Under the pieces are notes generated by a model. The model searched no databases and was not told the DNA's origin. It saw only the letters and a list, made by a program, of their open reading frames with translations. Shown piece by piece: positions 1-6,262 of a DNA stretch of 6,262 bases (position 1 is the first letter of the stretch; each line of letters opens with the position of its first letter). Position numbers and translations under genes: made by a program. The DNA comes from a virus. Its lineage: Duplodnaviria; Heunggongvirae; Uroviricota; Caudoviricetes. The stretch lies in the IMG/VR virus record IMGVR_UViG_2602041905_000007. One strand, 5' to 3'.

Positions 1-977
1 GTTTTCTACCTTTGTGAGCATCATGGCTGTGTGATCCATCAGTCTGAGCTTGACCAGAGTAACGGGCGGTGGATCTGTGAAAACACGGGCATGTGGACTC
101 GTGACGGTCTGACATTTTTCAGCGCCGCGGATAATGAAATTCCGCCGCCGCGCTCCATCACATTCCATATCTGGACGGCGTACAGTCCGTTCACCACCTG
201 GGTACAGATTGTCTATGACTGGCTGGATGCACTGAAAGATCCCAACGGCCTGAAAACCTTTGTGAACACCACGCTGGGCGAGACCTGGGAAGAGGCCGTG
301 GGCGAAAAACTCGATCACCAGGTGCTGATGGATAAGGTTGTGCGTTACACGGCTGCGGTGCCTTCCCGGGTGGTTTATCTGACGGCGGGCATTGACTCGC
401 AGCGAAACCGTTTTGAGATGTATGTCTGGGGATGGGCTCCGGGAGAGGAAGCCTTTCTGGTGGATAAAATCATCATTATGGGGCGTCCCGATGAGGAAGA
501 GACGCTGTTACGTGTGGATGTGGCGATCAACAAAAAATACCGCCATGCAGACGGAACCGAAATGACCATTTCCCGTGTCTGCTGGGACACCGGGGGGATC
601 GATGGCGAAATTGTCTATCAGAGGTCAAAAAAACACGGTGTTTTCCGGGTGCTGCCGGTAAAAGGTGCATCTGTTTATGGCAAGCCGGTGATCACCATGC
701 CAAAAACCCGCAATCAGCGGGGCGTGTATCTGTGCGAAGTGGGGACGGACACCGCAAAAGAAATTCTCTATGCCCGTATGAAAGCCGATCCCACGCCTGC
801 GGATGAAGCCACGTCGTATGCCATCCGTTTTCCTGATGATCCGGAGATTTTTTCGCAGACAGAGGCGCAGCAACTGGTGGCGGAAGAGCTTGTGGAGAAG
901 TGGGAAAAAGGAAAGATGCGTCTGCTGTGGGATAACAAAAAGCGGCGTAACGAAGCGCTGGACTGCCTGGTGTATGC
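1..977 (+). CDS. A: Terminase large subunit (lambda gpA-like), internal/C-terminal fragment; 5' end lies outside the window, 3' end cut by the N-run at 978-987
   Basis: Frame 1 is open from base 1 (VFYLCEHHGCVIHQSELDQ...) to the N-run. The translation (…WTAYSPFTTWVQIVYDWLDALKDPNGLKTFVNTTLGETWEE…GIDSQRNRFEMYVWGW…) is recognisably the C-terminal half of lambda terminase large subunit. The first M in the ORF track at 31 is an internal GTG, not a real start. Confidence 0.85.
521..977. repeat. Copy 1 of an imperfect direct duplication (partner 988-1444), about 457 bp, about 10 mismatches counted by eye
   Basis: Direct comparison: 538-547 taccgccatg equals 1005-1014, and 971-977 tgtatgc equals 1438-1444, giving a constant offset of 467. 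Differences are mainly third-codon-position changes. Confidence 0.9.
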
Positions 978-987
978 NNNNNNNNNN
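978..987. other. Assembly gap 1 (10 N) between overlapping contig ends
   Basis: Run of 10 N immediately flanked by the near-identical duplicated segments. Confidence 0.9.
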
Positions 988-1589
988 CGGCGATCAACAA
1001 AAAATACCGCCATGCAGACGGAACCGAAATGACCATTTCCCGTGTCTGCTGGGACATCGGGGGGATCGATGGCGAAATCGTTTATCAGAGGTCAAAAAAA
1101 CACGGTGTTTTCCGGGTGCTGCCGGTAAAAGGCGCATCTGTCTATGGCAAGCCGGTGATCACCATGCCAAAAACCCGCAATCAGCGGGGCGTGTATCTGT
1201 GTGAAGTGGGGACGGACACCGCAAAAGAAATTCTCTATGCCCGTATGAAAGCCGATCCCACGCCTGTGGATGAAGCCACGTCGTATGCTATCCGTTTTCC
1301 TGATGATCCGGAGATTTTTTCGCAGACAGAGGCGCAGCAACTGGTCGCGGAAGAGCTTGTGGAGAAGTGGGAAAAAGGAAAGATGCGTCTGCTGTGGGAT
1401 AACAAAAAGCGGCGTAACGAAGCGCTGGACTGCCTGGTGTATGCCTACGCGGCATTACGTGTGTCCGTGCAACGCTGGCAGCTTGATCTGGCTGTACTGG
1501 CAAAATCCCGGGAAGAAGAGACGACCCGGCCAACCCTTAAAGAACTGGCAGCGAAGCTGTCCGGAGGAGTGAATGGTTACAGTCGCTGA
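988..1589 (+). CDS. A: Terminase large subunit (gpA-like) C-terminal end, second copy after the gap; 988-1444 repeats 521-977
   Basis: Frame 3 is open from the gap to TGA at 1587-1589 (…MTISRVCWDIGGIDGEIVYQRSKKHGVFRVLPVKG…LDCLVYAYAALRVSVQRWQLDLAVLAKSREEETTRPTLKELAAKLSGGVNGYSR). It runs directly into the gpW-like start. The frame differs from the first copy because the copy offset is 467 bp. Confidence 0.85.
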
Positions 1590-1779
1590 ACTGCAGGCGC
1601 TGCGTCAGGCGCGCCTTGATTTATTAACCGGTAAACGGGTGGTGTCTGTCCAGAAAGATGGTCGCAGAATTGAATATACGGCAGCTTCTCTGGATGAGCT
1701 TAACCGGGCGATCAATGATGCGGAGTCGGTACTGGGGACAACCCGCCGTCGCCGTCGTCCGCTGGGAGTGAGGTTATGA
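1573..1779 (+). CDS. W: Head-tail joining / head completion protein (lambda gpW-like), 68 aa
   Basis: ATG at 1573 with GGAGG at 1563-1567; 68-aa product MVTVAELQALRQARLDLLTGKRVVSVQKDGRRIEYTAASLDELNRAINDAESVLGTTRRRRRPLGVRL resembles lambda gpW (same length, shared LTGKRV.VQKDGRR core). The start overlaps the terminase 3' end and the TGA stop overlaps the portal ATG (ATGA at 1776-1779). Confidence 0.85.
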   Translation: MVTVAELQALRQARLDLLTGKRVVSVQKDGRRIEYTAASLDELNRAINDAESVLGTTRRRRRPLGVRL

Positions 1780-2310
1780 AACGAACGCCTGTCCTGATTG
1801 ATGTGAACGGCGTTCCGCTTCGGGAGAGCCTCAGCTACACCGGTGGCGGTGCAGGATTTGGCGGGCAAATGGCAGAGTGGTTGCCACCCTCGCAGAGTGC
1901 CGATGCGGCCCTGCTGCCCGCGTTGCGTCTGGGGAATGCCCGTGCAGATGATCTGGTGCGCAATAACGGAATAGCGGCCAATGCGGTGGCCCTGCATAAG
2001 GATCACATTGTCGGGCATATGTTTCTGATTAGCTACCGTCCGAACTGGCGCTGGCTGGGGATGCGGGAGACCGCGGCAAAAAGTTTTGTCGATGAGGTGG
2101 AGGCGGCCTGGTCAGAATACGCAGAAGGGATGTTTGGTGAGATCGACGTGGAAGGGAAACGCACGTTTACGGAATTTATCCGTGAAGGTGTGGGCGTTCA
2201 TGCGTTTAACGGCGAAATCTTTGTGCAGCCGGTCTGGGATACGGAGAGTACGCAACTGTTTCGTACGCGTTTTAAAGCCGTGAGTCCGAAACGGGTGGAC
2301 ACGCCAGGAC
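1684..2310. repeat. Copy 1 of an imperfect direct duplication (partner 2322-2948), about 627 bp, roughly 28 mismatches counted by eye
   Basis: gcttctctggatgagcttaaccgggcg at 1684 equals 2322 onward; tgagtccgaaacgggtggac at 2281-2300 equals 2919-2938; constant offset 638. The segment covers the gpW-like 3' end plus the portal 5' end. Confidence 0.9.
1776..2310 (+). CDS. B: Portal protein (lambda gpB-like) N-terminal fragment, first copy, cut by the N-run at 2311-2320
   Basis: ATG at 1776 overlapping the gpW-like stop; translation MKRTPVLIDVNGVPLRESLSYTGGGAGFGGQMAEWLPPSQSADAALLPALRLGNARADDLVRNNG… matches the lambda portal N-terminus (…GGGSGFGG…GNARADDLVRNNG…). Confidence 0.8.
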
Positions 2311-2320
2311 NNNNNNNNNN
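2311..2320. other. Assembly gap 2 (10 N) between overlapping contig ends
   Basis: Run of 10 N flanked by duplicated sequence. Confidence 0.9.
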
Positions 2321-2321
2321 G

Positions 2322-2417
2322 GCTTCTCTGGATGAGCTTAACCGGGCGATCAATGATGCGGAGTCGGTACTGGGGACAACCCGGTGTCGCCGTCGTCCGC
2401 TGGGAGTGAGGTTATGA
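2322..2417 (+). pseudogene. W: Orphan 3' fragment of the gpW-like gene (second-copy overlap), not an independent gene
   Basis: Encodes …ASLDELNRAINDAESVLGTTRCRRRPLGVRL* in frame with no start; it repeats 1684-1779 with one R-to-C change. Most likely an artefact of the unmerged overlap. Confidence 0.7.
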
Positions 2418-4006
2418 AACGAACGCCTGTCCTGATTGATGTGAACGGCGTTCCGCTTCGTGAGAGTCTCAGCTACAACGGGGGCGGTGCAGGATTTGGC
2501 GGGCAAATGGCTGAGTGGTTGCCACCGGCGCAGAGTGCCGATGCGGCCCTGCTGCCCGCGTTGCGTCTGGGGAATGCCCGGGCAGATGATCTGGTGCGCA
2601 ATAACGGAATAGCGGCTAATGCGGTGGCTCTGCATAAGGATCACATTGTCGGGCATATGTTTCTGATCAGCTACCGTCCGAACTGGCGCTGGCTGGGGAT
2701 GCGGGAGACCGCAGCAAAAAGCTTTGTCGATGAGGTGGAGGCGGCCTGGTCGGAATACGCCGAAGGGATGTTTGGCGAGATCGACGTGGAAGGAAAACGC
2801 ACGTTCACGGAATTTATCCGTGAAGGTGTGGGCGTTCATGCGTTTAACGGCGAAATCTTTGTGCAGCCGGTCTGGGATACGGAAACCACGCAGTTATTCC
2901 GTACGCGTTTTAAAGCCGTGAGTCCGAAACGGGTGGACACGCCTGGACACGGTATGGGGAACCGTTTTCTGCGGGCCGGTGTGGAGGTCGATCGATATGG
3001 CCGTGCCGTCGCGTACCATATCTGTGAGGATGATTTTCCGTTCTCTGGTAGTGGACGATGGGAACGGATCCCGCGTGAACTTCCCACCGGGCGTCCGGCC
3101 ATGCTGCATATTTTCGAGCCGGTGGAGGACGGGCAGACCCGTGGGGCTAATCAGTTTTACAGCGTCACGGAACGGCTGAAGATGCTCGATTCCCTGCAGG
3201 CAACACAGCTTCAGTCGGCCATAGTGAAGGCGATGTATGCAGCGACGATTGAAAGTGAACTTGATACCGAAAAGGCCTTTGAATATATCGCCGGCGCGCC
3301 ACAGGAGCAGAAGGATAATCCGCTTATTAATATTCTGGAGAAGTTTTCCAGCTGGTATGACACGAATAACGTGACACTGGGCGGTGTCAAAATTCCGCAC
3401 CTTTTCCCTGGTGATGATCTGAAACTACAGACTGCGCAGGATTCAGACAATGGATTTTCTGCGCTTGAACAGGCGCTGCTGCGGTATATCGCCGCCGGTC
3501 TTGGCGTTTCCTACGAACAGTTGTCCCGTGATTACTCGAAGGTCAGTTACTCAAGTGCCCGCGCCTCCGCCAATGAGTCGTGGCGCTATTTTATGGGGCG
3601 GCGAAAATTTATTGCGGCCCGGCTGGCCACGCAGATGTTTTCCTGCTGGCTGGAAGAGGCACTTCTTCGGGGGATTATTCGTCCGCCACGGGCACGTTTT
3701 GATTTTTATCAGGCGCGATCAGCCTGGTCACGGGCAGAGTGGATTGGTGCCGGAAGAATGGCCATTGACGGGCTCAAGGAAGTCCAGGAATCAGTGATGC
3801 GCATTGAGGCCGGACTGAGCACGTATGAGAAAGAGCTGGCGCTGATGGGCGAGGATTATCAGGACATTTTCCGCCAGCAGGTCAGGGAATCTGCTGAGCG
3901 GCAAAAAGCCGGACTCTCACGTCCGGTGTGGATAGAGCAGGCGTATCAGCAGCAGATAGCGGAGAGTCGTAGGCCGGAAGAGGAGACAACACCACGTGAG
4001 ACGTAA
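2414..4006 (+). CDS. B: Portal protein (lambda gpB-like), complete second copy, 530 aa
   Basis: ATG at 2414 in the ATGA overlap with the gpW-like stop; continuous ORF to TAA at 4004-4006. The translation matches lambda portal along its length (…FEPVEDGQTRGAN.FYSV…LQSAIVKAMYAATIESELDT…LLRYIAAGLGVSYEQLSR…GRMAIDGLKEVQE…EAGLSTYEKE…). The track's start at 2384 is an upstream GTG inside the gpW-like fragment. Confidence 0.9.
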   Translation: MKRTPVLIDVNGVPLRESLSYNGGGAGFGGQMAEWLPPAQSADAALLPALRLGNARADDLVRNNGIAANAVALHKDHIVGHMFLISYRPNWRWLGMRETAAKSFVDEVEAAWSEYAEGMFGEIDVEGKRTFTEFIREGVGVHAFNGEIFVQPVWDTETTQLFRTRFKAVSPKRVDTPGHGMGNRFLRAGVEVDRYGRAVAYHICEDDFPFSGSGRWERIPRELPTGRPAMLHIFEPVEDGQTRGANQFYSVTERLKMLDSLQATQLQSAIVKAMYAATIESELDTEKAFEYIAGAPQEQKDNPLINILEKFSSWYDTNNVTLGGVKIPHLFPGDDLKLQTAQDSDNGFSALEQALLRYIAAGLGVSYEQLSRDYSKVSYSSARASANESWRYFMGRRKFIAARLATQMFSCWLEEALLRGIIRPPRARFDFYQARSAWSRAEWIGAGRMAIDGLKEVQESVMRIEAGLSTYEKELALMGEDYQDIFRQQVRESAERQKAGLSRPVWIEQAYQQQIAESRRPEEETTPRET

Positions 4007-5401
4007 TCTTTCACACATTATTGCCGCAGCATTCAATGAACCGCTGCTTCTGGAGCCCGCCTATGCGCGGGTTTTCTTTTGCGCGCTCGGGCGCGAGATG
4101 GGGGCAGCAAGTCTTTCGGTACCACAACAGCAGGTACAGTTTGATGCNNNNNNNNNNTGCACCGGCTGGGTGGTATGCGGCCATTTTCCGGAATGACAGG
4201 CTATGACGGCATTGTCGCCTGTCTTCAGCAGGCAATGGCGGATAGCCAGGTGCGGGGCGTACTGCTGGACATTGACAGTCCGGGCGGGCAGGCCGCCGGC
4301 GCGTTTGACTGCGCTGACATGATTTACCGCCTCCGTCAGCAGAAGCCGGTCTGGGCACTGTGCAATGACACGGCCTGTTCTGCAGCCATGCTGCTGGCGT
4401 CGGCCTGCTCCCGACGGCTGGTTACCCAGACATCCCGTATCGGCTCCATTGGCGTGATGATGAGCCATGTCAGCTATGCCGGTCATCTGGCGCAGGCCGG
4501 TGTGGATATCACGCTGATTTACTCAGGGGCGCACAAGGTGGATGGCAATCAGTTTGAAGCGTTGCCGGCAGAGGTTCGCCAGGACATGCAGCAGCGGATT
4601 GATGCGGCGCGCCGGATGTTTGCCGAAAAAGTGGCGATGTTTACCGGTCTGTCTGTTGATGCCGTCACGGGAACAGAGGCTGCCGTTTTTGAAGGTCAGT
4701 CCGGCATTGAGGCCGGGCTGGCGGATGAATTAATCAATGCGTCGGATGCCATCAGTGTGATGGCCACGGCGCTGAACAGTAATGTCAGAGGAGGCACTAT
4801 GCCGCAATTAACTGCAACGGAAGCCGCCGCGCAGGAGAACCAGCGAGTGATGGGGATCCTGACATGCCAGGAAGCGAAAGGACGTGAACAGCTTGCCACG
4901 ATGCTGGCAGGACAACAGGGCATGAGCGTTGAACAGGCCCGGGCGATTCTGGCCGCGGCGGCACCGCAGCAGCCGGTGGCATCCACGCAGAGTGAAGCCG
5001 ATCGCATTATGGTGTGTGAAGAAGCGAACGGTCGTGAACAACTGGCGGCAACGCTGGCGGCGATGCCGGAGATGACGGTGGAAAAAGCCCGCCCGATCCT
5101 GGCTGCTTCACCGCAGGCGGATGCCGGACCATCACTCCGTGATCAGATCATGGCACTGGATGAGGCAAAAGGGGCTGAGGCGCAGGCTGAACAGCTGGCT
5201 GCCTGCCCGGGAATGACAGTGGAGAGCGCCCGGGCTGTGCTGGCTGCGGGATCAGGTAAGGCAGAACCGGTCTCTGCATCCACAACCGCCATGTTTGAAC
5301 ATTTCATGGCGAACCATTCACCGGCAGCGGTACAGGGTGGCGTGGCACAGACGTCAGCAGACGGTGATGCGGACGTGAAAATGCTCATGGCCATGCCATG
5401 A
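3996..5401 (+). CDS. C: Head maturation protease / scaffold fusion (lambda gpC-like, S49 SppA/ClpP-like peptidase family), interrupted by the N-run at 4148-4157
   Basis: GTG at 3996 (GAGGAG at 3979-3984) overlapping the portal stop; N-terminus MRRNLSHIIAAAFNEPLLLEPAYARVFFCAL matches the lambda gpC N-terminus. After the gap, frame 2 is open to TGA at 5399-5401 and reads …FSGMTGYDGIVACLQQA…VLLDIDSPGG…GAFDCADMIYRLRQQKPVWALCNDTACSAAMLLASACSRRLVTQTSRIGSIGVMM…ITLIYSGAHKVDGN…, matching the gpC protease core. The two flanks are in different frames because the gap length is a placeholder. Confidence 0.85.
4148..4157. other. Assembly gap 3 (10 N) inside the gpC-like gene; no flanking duplication
   Basis: Run of 10 N. 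The flanking coding sequence is in different frames (left codons start at positions divisible by 3, right at positions leaving remainder 2), and too few residues lie between the conserved FFCAL and SGMTGY blocks. Confidence 0.85.
4799..5401 (+). CDS. nu3: Nested in-frame scaffolding protein (lambda Nu3-like), translated from an internal start in the gpC-like frame
   Basis: ATG at 4799 is in the gpC-like frame and is preceded by a strong Shine-Dalgarno AGAGGAGG at 4787-4794. It sits at the equivalent position to the lambda Nu3 start (…GG(R/T)M… just before the scaffold domain). Product MPQLTATEAAAQENQRVMGILTCQEAKGREQLA… is Ala/Gln/Glu-rich, as expected for a scaffold. Confidence 0.55.
   Translation: MPQLTATEAAAQENQRVMGILTCQEAKGREQLATMLAGQQGMSVEQARAILAAAAPQQPVASTQSEADRIMVCEEANGREQLAATLAAMPEMTVEKARPILAASPQADAGPSLRDQIMALDEAKGAEAQAEQLAACPGMTVESARAVLAAGSGKAEPVSASTTAMFEHFMANHSPAAVQGGVAQTSADGDADVKMLMAMP
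4835..5265 (+). repeat. Three diverged tandem repeats of about 45-50 codons within the gpC/Nu3-like scaffold domain
   Basis: Protein-level repeats: ENQRVMGILTCQEAKGREQLATMLAGQQGMSVEQARAILAAAAPQ / EADRIMVCEEANGREQLAATLAAMPEMTVEKARPILAASPQ / LRDQIMALDEAKGAEAQAEQLAACPGMTVESARAVLAAGSG. The DNA copies are clearly diverged, so this is not an assembly artefact. Confidence 0.7.
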
Positions 5402-5421
5402 AGTCAGTGCTGACCATCAAT

Positions 5422-5427
5422 AGGAGG
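5422..5427 (+). promoter_or_regulatory. Shine-Dalgarno site for the gpD-like gene
   Basis: AGGAGG located 10 nt upstream of the ATG at 5438. Confidence 0.7.
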
Positions 5428-5437
5428 TTTTTACAAT

Positions 5438-5785
5438 ATGGTGACGAAAACCATCACTGAACAGCGTGCGGAAGTACGTATTTTTGCCGGTAATGATCCG
5501 GCTCATACCGCCACAGGCAGCAGCGGGATTTCCTCGCCAACACCGGCACTGACGCCCCTGATGCTGGATGAAGCCACCGGGAAACTGGTGGTCTGGGACG
5601 GACAGAAAGCCGGTAGTGCGGTTGGCATACTGGTACTGCCGCTTGAAGGCACAGAGACGGCGCTGACGTATTACAAGTCGGGAACCTTTGCGACGGAGGC
5701 AATCCACTGGCCTGAAAGTGTGGATGAACACAAAAAGGCCAACGCCTTTGCTGGCAGTGCCCTGAGTCACGCGGCGCTGCCGTAA
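5438..5785 (+). CDS. D: Head decoration protein (lambda gpD-like), 115 aa
   Basis: ATG at 5438 with AGGAGG upstream, TAA at 5783-5785. The translation …GNDPAHTATGSSGISSPTPALTPLMLDEATGKLVVWDGQKAGSAVGILV…TYYKSGTF…WPE…K.AFAGSA… matches lambda gpD motifs (SDPAHTAT, MTPLMLD, KLVAWDG, AAVGIL, FYKSGTF, AFAGTA). Confidence 0.88.
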   Translation: MVTKTITEQRAEVRIFAGNDPAHTATGSSGISSPTPALTPLMLDEATGKLVVWDGQKAGSAVGILVLPLEGTETALTYYKSGTFATEAIHWPESVDEHKKANAFAGSALSHAALP

Positions 5786-5792
5786 CACGTTA

Positions 5793-5814
5793 TCAGGCCA
5801 CCGCGGTGGCCTGA
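5793..5814. promoter_or_regulatory. Perfect 22-bp palindrome in the gpD-gpE intergenic region (possible RNA hairpin or protein-binding site)
   Basis: tcaggccaccgcggtggcctga equals its own reverse complement; it lies 8 nt after the gpD-like stop and 28 nt before the gpE-like start. No strong U-tract follows. Confidence 0.5.
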
Positions 5815-5842
5815 CTGATTTCTGAATGAAAGGAACTGATTT

Positions 5843-6262
5843 ATGGGATTGTTTACGACCCGCCAGTTACTCGGTTATACCGAACAAAAAGTTAAATTTC
5901 GTGCGCTGTTTCTGGAGCTGTTTTTCCGCCGTACGGTGAATTTCCATACCGAAGAGGTGATGCTGGACAAAATTACCGGAAAAACGCCGGTGGCGGCCTA
6001 TGTCTCCCCGGTTGTTGAAGGAAAAGTGCTGCGTCATCGTGGTGGTGAAACCCGCGTGTTGCGTCCGGGCTACGTCAAGCCGAAACACGAATTTAATTAC
6101 CAGCAGGCGGTTGAGCGCCTTCCTGGTGAAGATCCATCTCAACTGAATGATCCGGCTTACCGCCGTCTGCGTATCATTACCGATAACCTCAAACAGGAAG
6201 AGCACGCGATTGTCCAGGTGGAAGAAATGCAGGCGGTAAATGCTGTGTTGTATGGCAAATAC
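5843..6262 (+). CDS. E: Major capsid protein (lambda gpE-like), N-terminal 140 codons; continues beyond the window
   Basis: ATG at 5843 with AAGGA 7 nt upstream; open to the window end. The translation MGLFTTRQLLGYTEQKVKFRALFLELFFRR…AAYVSPVVEGKVLRHRGGE…PGYVKPKHEFN…DPAYRRLRII…EEHAIVQVEEMQAVNAVLYGKY closely parallels the lambda gpE N-terminus. Confidence 0.9.
   Translation, partial: MGLFTTRQLLGYTEQKVKFRALFLELFFRRTVNFHTEEVMLDKITGKTPVAAYVSPVVEGKVLRHRGGETRVLRPGYVKPKHEFNYQQAVERLPGEDPSQLNDPAYRRLRIITDNLKQEEHAIVQVEEMQAVNAVLYGKY

What the first reader, a model, noticed from the sequence alone, without database searches (positions are those of the whole stretch)
1684..2948. Second unmerged overlap (about 627 bp, roughly 95% identity) duplicating the gpW-like 3' end and portal 5' end
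1684-2310 and 2322-2948 are the same sequence at an offset of 638 bp with roughly 28 mismatches counted by eye. Again these are predominantly synonymous, plus a few amino-acid changes (R vs C in the gpW-like tail; T vs N, S vs A and S vs T in the portal N-terminus). This overlap is clearly more diverged than the first one, so the middle contig (988-2310) is closer to the left allele than to the right one. That suggests a mosaic scaffold stitched from at least two distinct but related phage genomes. The apparent extra truncated portal and extra gpW-like tail are therefore artefacts, not a gene duplication.
Basis: seen in the sequence. Interest (0 to 1): 0.55.

Follow-up and report, generated by a model that had tools for sequence, protein, structure and literature searches.

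The report
Scaffolding artefact joining two prophages
The apparent duplicate of the head-tail joining gene's end and the portal gene's start is not a real duplication: a draft E. coli assembly placed the matching pieces of two related resident prophages one after the other across a 10-N gap.

Summary
Bases 1684-2310 and 2322-2948 are collinear, 627 nt long, and differ at 28 sites (95.5% identity). They are separated by the 10-N run at 2311-2320.

The window is the whole GenBank record JQFD01002007.1. That record is a SPAdes draft of E. coli isolate 913 (ST95, O1:K1), a pure culture.

All 28 differences, plus a 29th at 1683/2321, are fixed differences between two phage-21-type prophages. In the complete ST95 chromosomes checked these lie about 149 kb apart. 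"A" carries iss; "B" lies next to tRNA-Ile/Arg.

Against strain SCU-108 the four pieces resolve as follows:
- Piece 1 is B, exact.
- Piece 2 is A for 988-1682 and B for 1347-2310, both exact. The switch lies inside the longest A/B-identical stretch (336 nt).
- Piece 3 is A with one mismatch.
- Piece 4 is A, exact.

None of 5,426 complete E. coli genomes has the tandem layout, and the phage records listed span 2,521-2,522 nt where the window has 3,160.

The two "phage genomes" are prophages of one chromosome. The middle piece is not closer to the left allele; it is an A|B hybrid.

This is ordinary and of low interest, except as a warning about spurious gene models.

The parts
1..977 (+). Piece c1: terminase large subunit, nuclease domain part. 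Allele of prophage B, the prophage next to tRNA-Ile/Arg/Arg.
   Evidence: Exact 977/977 match to prophage B of PA45B and SCU-108, and 21-25 mismatches to the other six loci compared: three A prophages and the B prophages of DSM 30083, UPEC129 and PRO_A-1374. Pfam GpA_nuclease, E 1e-68.
978..987 (.). 10-N scaffold gap 1. It hides an unmerged 456-nt overlap (522-977 vs 989-1444; 9 mismatches).
988..2310 (+). Piece c2: terminase 3' end, complete gpW (1573-1779) and the first 178 codons of portal (1776-2309). It is an A|B hybrid. Bases 988-1682 are exact prophage A and 1347-2310 are exact prophage B. Bases 1347-1682 are the stretch the two share.
   Evidence: longest exact prefix and suffix in the SCU-108 A and B loci; all mismatches to B lie at or left of window 1346, and all mismatches to A lie at or right of window 1683. 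The best hits among 5,426 complete genomes were 99.8-99.9% identical, and every fetched locus differs from c2 by at least 2 sites.
1347..1682 (+). A 336-nt stretch identical in prophages A and B (terminase 3' end and gpW 5' part). It is the longest exact A/B identity in the head module and the place where c2 switches from A to B.
   Evidence: the longest run without an A/B difference is 336 nt; no variable site in any of the 7 loci between reference positions 7880 and 8215.
1684..2310 (+). Left copy of the repeat: gpW 3' end and portal 5' end, prophage B allele.
   Evidence: At all 28 differing sites it carries the PA45B prophage-B base. At 25 of them all four B-type loci agree. At 1943, 2030 and 2249 one B locus (DSM 30083 or UPEC129) carries the A base.
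2311..2320 (.). 10-N scaffold gap 2, placed where the two pieces overlap by 628 nt but could not be merged.
   Evidence: In phage 21 and the other full-coverage phage records listed, the 3,160-nt query 988-4147 spans only 2,521-2,522 nt, which is 3,160 minus the 638 offset.
2321..4147 (+). Piece c3: gpW 3' end (to 2417), full portal gene (2414-4006) and the first 152 nt of the S49 protease/scaffold gene. Allele of prophage A, the iss-carrying prophage.
   Evidence: One mismatch in 1,827 nt to prophage A of PA45B, UPEC129 and SCU-108, and 68-71 mismatches to the B loci. Pfam Phage_portal_2, E 1e-98.
2322..2948 (+). Right copy of the repeat: gpW 3' end and portal 5' end, prophage A allele.
   Evidence: At all 28 differing sites it carries the base shared by the three A-type loci.
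4148..4157 (.). 10-N scaffold gap 3. This one is a true gap: 110 nt of the S49 protease gene are missing.
   Evidence: c3 ends at PA45B position 1201134 and c4 starts at 1201245. The missing sequence is shown.
4158..6262 (+). Piece c4: S49 protease/scaffold (to 5401), head decoration protein (5438-5785) and major capsid protein 5' part (5843-6262). Prophage A allele.
   Evidence: Exact 2,105/2,105 match to SCU-108 prophage A, and 72-81 mismatches to the B loci. Pfam Peptidase_S49, HDPD and Phage_cap_E.

Best explanation
The repeat is a scaffolding artefact in a short-read draft genome. E. coli isolate 913 (ST95) carries two phage-21-type lambdoid prophages, as the finished ST95 chromosomes checked do. 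Their head modules are 96-98% identical and contain exact identities of up to 336 nt.

The assembler produced separate pieces for the diverged parts of each prophage. One piece (c2) crossed the 336-nt identical stretch and switched from prophage A to prophage B.

Inferred step: read pairs from prophage B link c1 to the B part of c2, and read pairs from prophage A link the A part of c2 to c3. The scaffolder therefore chained c1(B), c2(A|B) and c3(A). The ends that should overlap are only 95.5-98% identical, so they could not be merged, and a minimal 10-N spacer was written between them.

The result is that homologous segments of two different loci sit in series and look like a tandem duplication. 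No biological duplication, extra portal fragment or extra gpW tail exists.

Shown: the repeat itself, the N boundaries, the allele assignment, the absence from finished genomes and the origin of the record. Inferred: the read-pair mechanism, and that c2 is chimeric rather than a third real locus.
For: 1. The copies end exactly at the 10-N run, and the right-hand piece starts at a discriminating site.

2. At all 29 differing sites the left copy has the prophage-B base of PA45B and the right copy has the base shared by the three A-type loci. At 26 of the 29 all four B-type loci agree.

3. A and B co-reside in single finished chromosomes. This holds for PA45B, DSM 30083, UPEC129 and SCU-108, which were fetched, and for APEC O1, IHE3034 and PMV-1 from the hit tables. 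The two prophages lie about 146-149 kb apart in all of these except UPEC129, where they are about 0.8 Mb apart.

4. One two-prophage genome, SCU-108, accounts for 6,231 of the 6,232 non-N bases. c1 is B, exact. c2 is an A prefix of 695 nt plus a B suffix of 964 nt, both exact. c3 is A with one mismatch. c4 is A, exact.

5. Searching the 1,265-nt repeat region against 5,426 complete E. coli genomes gives places only 628 nt long, onto which both halves pile. No record reaches 99% identity, and the best records reach 97.8%, the average of 100% and 95.5%.

6. In phage 21 and the other full-coverage phage records listed, the 3,160-nt query spans 2,521-2,522 nt.

7. The window is the entire record JQFD01002007.1 of GCA_000742495.1. 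The accession paper describes isolate 913 as an ST95 O1:K1 isolate sequenced as MiSeq 2x300 Nextera XT reads and assembled de novo with SPAdes (PMC4620641).

8. dN/dS of 0.036 between the copies shows two long-diverged functional alleles, not a recent duplicate or sequencing noise.
Against: No reads were available, so the read-pair links and the absence of junction-spanning reads are inferred rather than seen.

The ends of c2 (2310) and c3 (4147) do not coincide with A/B branch points. Some breaks must therefore come from low coverage rather than graph structure. This fits a very fragmented assembly, since the record number exceeds 2,000.

That SPAdes writes a 10-N minimal gap when it cannot close or merge a join is from my own recollection. 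I could not confirm it in the papers searched.

Real prophages almost identical to c2 exist: the B prophages of DSM 30083 and PRO_A-1374 each differ from it at 2 sites. c2 need not be chimeric if isolate 913 has a third prophage.
Confidence: 0.93

Rival explanations
1. The two alleles come from two different E. coli strains, or from a phage contaminant, mixed in the sequenced DNA. They would then be haplotypes of one locus rather than two prophages of one chromosome. The scaffold would still be an artefact.
For: The assembly is very fragmented; the record number is above 2,000. The paper reports G+C ranging from 49.2 to 51.3% among the sister assemblies. Either could hint at impurity in some of them.
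Against: Mixing is not needed. The finished ST95 genomes checked carry both alleles in one chromosome about 149 kb apart, and one such genome explains all but one base of the window. The DNA came from cultured single isolates with indistinguishable pulsotypes.
Confidence: 0.04
2. It is a genuine partial tandem duplication in one prophage: portal 5' fragment, then gpW 3' end, then a full portal gene. The N runs would only mark small unsequenced gaps.
For: The sequence as deposited shows the two copies in tandem. Both partial reading frames are intact, with a strong synonymous bias.
Against: - The copy boundaries coincide exactly with the N run.
- The copies carry the alleles of two separate loci.
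- None of 5,426 complete E. coli genomes, and none of the phage records listed, has the arrangement.
- A duplication 4.5% diverged at synonymous sites would be old and should then be widespread.
- The same scaffold has a second overlap of the same kind at gap 1.
Confidence: 0.01
3. This is a variant of the best explanation. Piece c2 would be real rather than chimeric. Isolate 913 would carry a third 21-type prophage, or a recombinant B prophage, with an A-like terminase 3' end and B-like gpW and portal. The scaffold would then mix three loci.
For: Such mosaics exist. The B prophages of DSM 30083 and PRO_A-1374 differ from c2 at 2 sites each, and that of UPEC129 at 3. Some ExPEC genomes have 3 to 5 places matching these genes.
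Against: The best c2 hits among 5,426 complete genomes were 99.8-99.9% identical, and no fetched locus matches it exactly. c1 and c4 each have many full-length 100% matches, and exact matches in the fetched loci. c2 is an exact concatenation of the A and B alleles of an ST95 genome, with the switch inside the longest exact repeat. That pattern is what a misassembly predicts.
Confidence: 0.12

Closest known systems
Head-gene module of lambdoid phage 21 (records OL657228.1 and M81255.1: terminase genes 1 and 2, head completion gene 3, portal gene 4, protease/scaffold gene 5)
   Same: Same gene order and about 99% nucleotide identity over terminase 3' end, gpW-type gene, portal and protease start. 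The Pfam families are the lambda-type ones: GpA_nuclease, gpW, Phage_portal_2, Peptidase_S49, HDPD and Phage_cap_E.
   Different: Phage 21 has one copy of every segment. The 3,160-nt window stretch corresponds to 2,522 nt there. The window adds nothing biological to it.
The two co-resident 21-type prophages of ST95 and other B2 ExPEC chromosomes. Examples are PA45B at 1.197-1.206 Mb (with iss) and 1.341-1.356 Mb (next to tRNA-Ile/Arg/Arg), and the same pair in SCU-108, DSM 30083 and UPEC129.
   Same: Every piece of the window is an exact or near-exact copy of one or the other of these two loci.
   Different: In the finished ST95 genomes and in DSM 30083 the two loci are about 146-149 kb apart, and about 0.8 Mb apart in UPEC129. 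Each has a single gpW and a single portal gene. The window interleaves them as B, A|B, A, A.
Unmerged-overlap or 'both alleles in series' scaffolding errors in short-read assemblies of repeated or heterozygous sequence (general assembly knowledge, not tested against a specific publication here)
   Same: Near-identical segments flank a short fixed-length N run. Each segment belongs to a different genomic copy, and the finished sequence lacks the duplication.
   Different: Here the copies are paralogous prophages in a haploid bacterial chromosome rather than alleles of a diploid genome. One piece also switches copy inside a 336-nt exact repeat.

Membership tests
Scaffolding artefact (unmerged overlap of paralogous repeat copies) | The repeat copies abut an N run, and each copy ends at the end of an assembled piece | tested here: met
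   The left copy ends at 2310, the N run is 2311-2320, and the right-hand piece starts at 2321. The same pattern occurs at gap 1.
Scaffolding artefact (unmerged overlap of paralogous repeat copies) | The two copies correspond to two different loci in finished genomes of the same lineage | tested here: met
   All 29 differing sites separate the window's two copies as PA45B prophage B versus prophage A. At 26 of them all four B loci differ from all three A loci. Both prophages lie in one chromosome in PA45B, SCU-108, DSM 30083 and UPEC129.
Scaffolding artefact (unmerged overlap of paralogous repeat copies) | The tandem arrangement is absent from finished genomes | tested here: met
   None of 5,426 complete E. 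coli genomes has it. The places found are 628 nt long, and the best mean identity is 97.8%. The phage records listed span 2,521-2,522 nt for the 3,160-nt query.
Scaffolding artefact (unmerged overlap of paralogous repeat copies) | The record comes from a short-read de novo assembly that was scaffolded | tested here: met
   The window is the whole of JQFD01002007.1. The paper states MiSeq 2x300 reads and SPAdes de novo assembly (PMC4620641). The record contains three 10-N runs.
Scaffolding artefact (unmerged overlap of paralogous repeat copies) | No reads or read pairs support the junction, and depth is consistent with two single-copy loci | not testable with these tools
Genuine tandem segmental duplication | A sequenced junction joins the end of copy 1 to the start of copy 2 | tested here: not met
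   The junction consists of 10 Ns.
Genuine tandem segmental duplication | The arrangement recurs in related finished genomes, or the copies are each other's closest relatives | tested here: not met
   No finished genome has it. Each copy is identical to a different prophage locus and 4.5% diverged from the other copy.
Phage-21-type lambdoid head module | Gene order terminase large subunit, gpW, portal, S49 protease/scaffold, decoration protein, major capsid protein, with the lambda-family domains | tested here: met
   All Pfam hits are above the gathering scores. Identity to phage 21 is about 99%. The RefSeq annotation of the matching loci agrees.

The most novel reading that the evidence does not exclude
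Isolate 913 might really carry a recombinant 21-type prophage, with an A-type terminase 3' end joined to B-type gpW and portal at the 336-nt identical stretch. That would be a fresh gene-conversion or recombination event between two prophages co-resident in one chromosome, caught within a clonal hospital outbreak. Even then the tandem repeat itself would remain an artefact.
Probability: 0.08. Interest if true: 0.25.

Novelty: not a real feature. Interest (0 to 1): 0.06.

Why it matters
Biologically it does not matter. The genes are ordinary phage-21-type head genes already present in thousands of E. coli genomes.

Its practical value is as a caution. The public gene calls on this record include at least four spurious or broken proteins:
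- a 343-aa terminase fragment fused across gap 1;
- a 213-aa fusion of the portal N-terminus, XXXX and the gpW tail, at 1776-2417;
- a 66-aa fragment and a 402-aa fragment of the S49 protease, split by gap 3.

One contig is also chimeric between two prophages. Such records can seed false 'novel' proteins, false duplications and false recombinants in protein clusters and prophage surveys.

Fixed 10-N runs flanked by near-identical sequence are a simple flag for removing such records.

Tried and rejected
1. Exact-pattern scans for the junction (17 nt, 10 N, 17 nt) found nothing in viral contigs, genome contigs or metagenome contigs. The same pattern does match the window itself, so the record is simply not in those collections. 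The source was found instead by exact look-up of the portal protein.

2. A literature search to document that SPAdes writes 10-N minimal gaps gave only unrelated uses of '10 Ns'. That point therefore stays as my own recollection.

3. I tried to read the assembler's k-mer size from the piece ends. c1 ends 98 nt after the last A/B site, but c2 and c3 end 4 and 7 nt after a variant site, and c2 and c3 start exactly on variant sites. There is no consistent k, so I dropped this.

4. A blastp self-comparison of the protease/scaffold protein did not report the degenerate internal repeats that are visible by eye. I did not pursue it.

5. Chance, a real tandem duplication and a strain mixture were considered and rejected; see the rival explanations.
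Full report
**Observation.** The window has three 10-N runs, at 978-987, 2311-2320 and 4148-4157. They cut it into four pieces: c1 (1-977), c2 (988-2310), c3 (2321-4147) and c4 (4158-6262). Bases 1684-2310 and 2322-2948 align without gaps at an offset of 638, with exactly 28 mismatches in 627 nt (95.5% identity). Base 2321 against base 1683 is a 29th mismatch (also family D2). A companion overlap (522-977 vs 989-1444) has 9 mismatches in 456 nt. The other 22 changed codons are synonymous. For the portal part dS is 0.207, dN is 0.0074 and dN/dS is 0.036.

**What the genes are.** Pfam assigns these families, all above gathering score:
- terminase large subunit nuclease domain (1-975);
- gpW (1573-1779);
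- lambda-family portal (full at 2414-4006; a 178-codon fragment at 1776-2309);
- S49 peptidase;
- head decoration protein D;
- major capsid protein E.

At the DNA level the module is about 99% identical to lambdoid phage 21 and to several induced E. coli phages. In the full-coverage phage records listed, the 3,160-nt stretch 988-4147 corresponds to only 2,521-2,522 nt, which is 3,160 minus the 638-nt offset.

**Where the two copies come from.** Each piece was searched against 5,426 complete E. coli genomes. About 1,900 genomes have these genes, with a median of one to two places per genome depending on the piece.

I fetched both places from PA45B, DSM 30083, UPEC129 and SCU-108, and one place from PRO_A-1374. 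These strains carry two distinct prophages:
- "A" carries iss and a TonB-family gene upstream of the terminase genes.
- "B" has a DUF1737 pseudogene and rrrQ upstream, and in PA45B lies just downstream of tRNA-Ile/Arg/Arg.

A and B lie about 146-149 kb apart in PA45B, SCU-108 and DSM 30083, and about 0.8 Mb apart in UPEC129. All loci are collinear with no indels, so I tabulated every variable site. At all 29 sites where the two window copies differ, the left copy has the base of PA45B prophage B and the right copy has the base shared by all three A loci. At 26 of those sites all four B loci agree; at the other three, one B locus carries the A base. The two copies are therefore the homologous segments of two different prophage loci.

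**One genome explains the whole window.** Against SCU-108:
- c1 is an exact substring of B.
- c4 is an exact substring of A.
- c3 matches A except at one base (window 3168).
- c2 is exact A for its first 695 nt (988-1682) and exact B for its last 964 nt (1347-2310).

The shared part of c2, 1347-1682, is a 336-nt stretch with no variable site in any locus. It is the longest exact A/B identity in the whole head module. The best c2 hits among the 5,426 complete genomes were 99.8-99.9% identical, and every fetched locus differs from it by at least 2 sites. c1 and c4 each have many full-length 100% matches. The scaffold therefore reads B, then A|B, then A, then A.

Gap 3 is different in kind. It hides 110 nt that really are missing.

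**No finished genome has the duplication.** I searched 1684-2948 as one query. In the best hits both halves pile onto the same 628-nt place. No record reaches 99% identity, and the best mean is 97.8%, the average of 100% and 95.5%.

**Source.** The portal protein of the window has a private substitution, and an exact look-up finds it on a single contig. That contig is JQFD01002007.1 of GCA_000742495.1, is 6,262 nt long, and is identical to the window. The accession paper (PMC4620641) assigns JQFD to isolate 913. This is one of the indistinguishable ST95 O1:K1:NM isolates recovered from neonatal feeding tubes. It was sequenced as MiSeq 2x300 Nextera XT libraries and assembled de novo with SPAdes. 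The DNA therefore came from one cultured clone of exactly the lineage whose finished genomes (PA45B, SCU-108, APEC O1, IHE3034, UTI89) give the best matches.

**Mechanism (inferred).** Two 96-98% identical head modules, with exact identities longer than the k-mer size, collapse and branch in a de Bruijn graph. One contig crossed the 336-nt identity and switched locus. B-derived read pairs then link c1 to the B part of c2, and A-derived pairs link the A part of c2 to c3. The implied overlaps are not identical and cannot be merged, so a minimal N spacer is written. That SPAdes uses 10 Ns for this is my recollection, and I could not document it. Some piece ends do not coincide with A/B branch points, so low coverage also contributed to the breaks. 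This fits an assembly of more than 2,000 records.

The artefact reading is right. The two "phage genomes" are prophages of one chromosome. The claim that the middle piece is closer to the left allele is wrong, because both overlaps compare A with B, and the A/B divergence is simply lower in the terminase 3' end (2%) than in gpW and portal (4.5%).

**Rivals.**
- A strain mixture is unnecessary and unsupported.
- A genuine tandem duplication is contradicted by the N-bounded copy ends, the allele assignment and the finished genomes.
- A real third, c2-like prophage cannot be excluded without reads, because near-identical mosaics exist in DSM 30083 and PRO_A-1374. It would not change the verdict on the repeat.

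**Novelty and interest.** This is not a real feature. Its only value is as an example of how scaffolded drafts put false fusion proteins and false duplications into databases. The public gene calls on this record include a 213-aa portal-XXXX-gpW fusion and three other broken models.

Noticed in passing
window 522-977 vs 989-1444 (gap 1 at 978-987): A first unmerged overlap of the same kind: 456 nt with 9 mismatches (98.0%). Here c1 carries the prophage-B terminase allele and c2 carries the prophage-A allele.
   Followed up: yes
window 4148-4157: The third 10-N run is a true gap, not an overlap. It hides 110 nt of the S49 protease/scaffold gene, so the gene is called as a 66-aa fragment plus a 402-aa fragment in the public record.
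   Followed up: yes
window 988-2310, switch within 1347-1682: Piece c2 is an exact concatenation of prophage A (988-1682) and prophage B (1347-2310). No fetched locus matches it exactly, and the best complete-genome hits were 99.8-99.9% identical. It is probably a chimeric contig formed across the longest exact A/B repeat (336 nt).
   Followed up: yes
window 3168: C here gives portal Thr252. All A-type prophages examined have T (Met). The exact 530-aa protein occurs on only this one contig in the 153-billion-gene index. It is either a private mutation of isolate 913 or a base-calling or assembly error.
   Followed up: partly
L003/L004 (DSM 30083) and L005/L006 (UPEC129), terminase large subunit genes: In these strains the two co-resident prophages encode identical TerL proteins (WP_042210311.1 in DSM 30083 and WP_001304453.1 in UPEC129). 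Their gpW and portal DNA nevertheless differs by about 4.5%. In PA45B and SCU-108 the B prophage has its own TerL allele. This suggests past exchange between co-resident prophages, with a boundary at the same 336-nt identical stretch.
   Followed up: partly
window 1-1032, 1776-2417, 3996-4196, 4193-5401: The public gene calls on the record contain artefact proteins: a terminase fragment fused across gap 1 (343 aa), a portal N-terminus fused through XXXX to the gpW tail (213 aa, no Pfam hit on record), and the split protease.
   Followed up: yes
window ~4830-5260 (C-terminal scaffold part of the S49 protease gene): Three degenerate repeats of about 45 aa are visible by eye (...GREQLATMLAGQQGMSVEQARAILAAA / ...GREQLAATLAAMPEMTVEKARPILAAS / ...AEAQAEQLAACPGMTVESARAVLAAG). 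The DNA inverted-repeat hits I1-I3 fall in the same region. A blastp self-comparison did not report the repeats.
   Followed up: partly
L002 408-701 and L006 1407-1700 (prophage A, upstream of the terminase genes): Prophage A carries the serum-survival gene iss (a bor homologue) and a TonB-family gene as cargo between the lysis and packaging modules. Prophage B does not.
   Followed up: no
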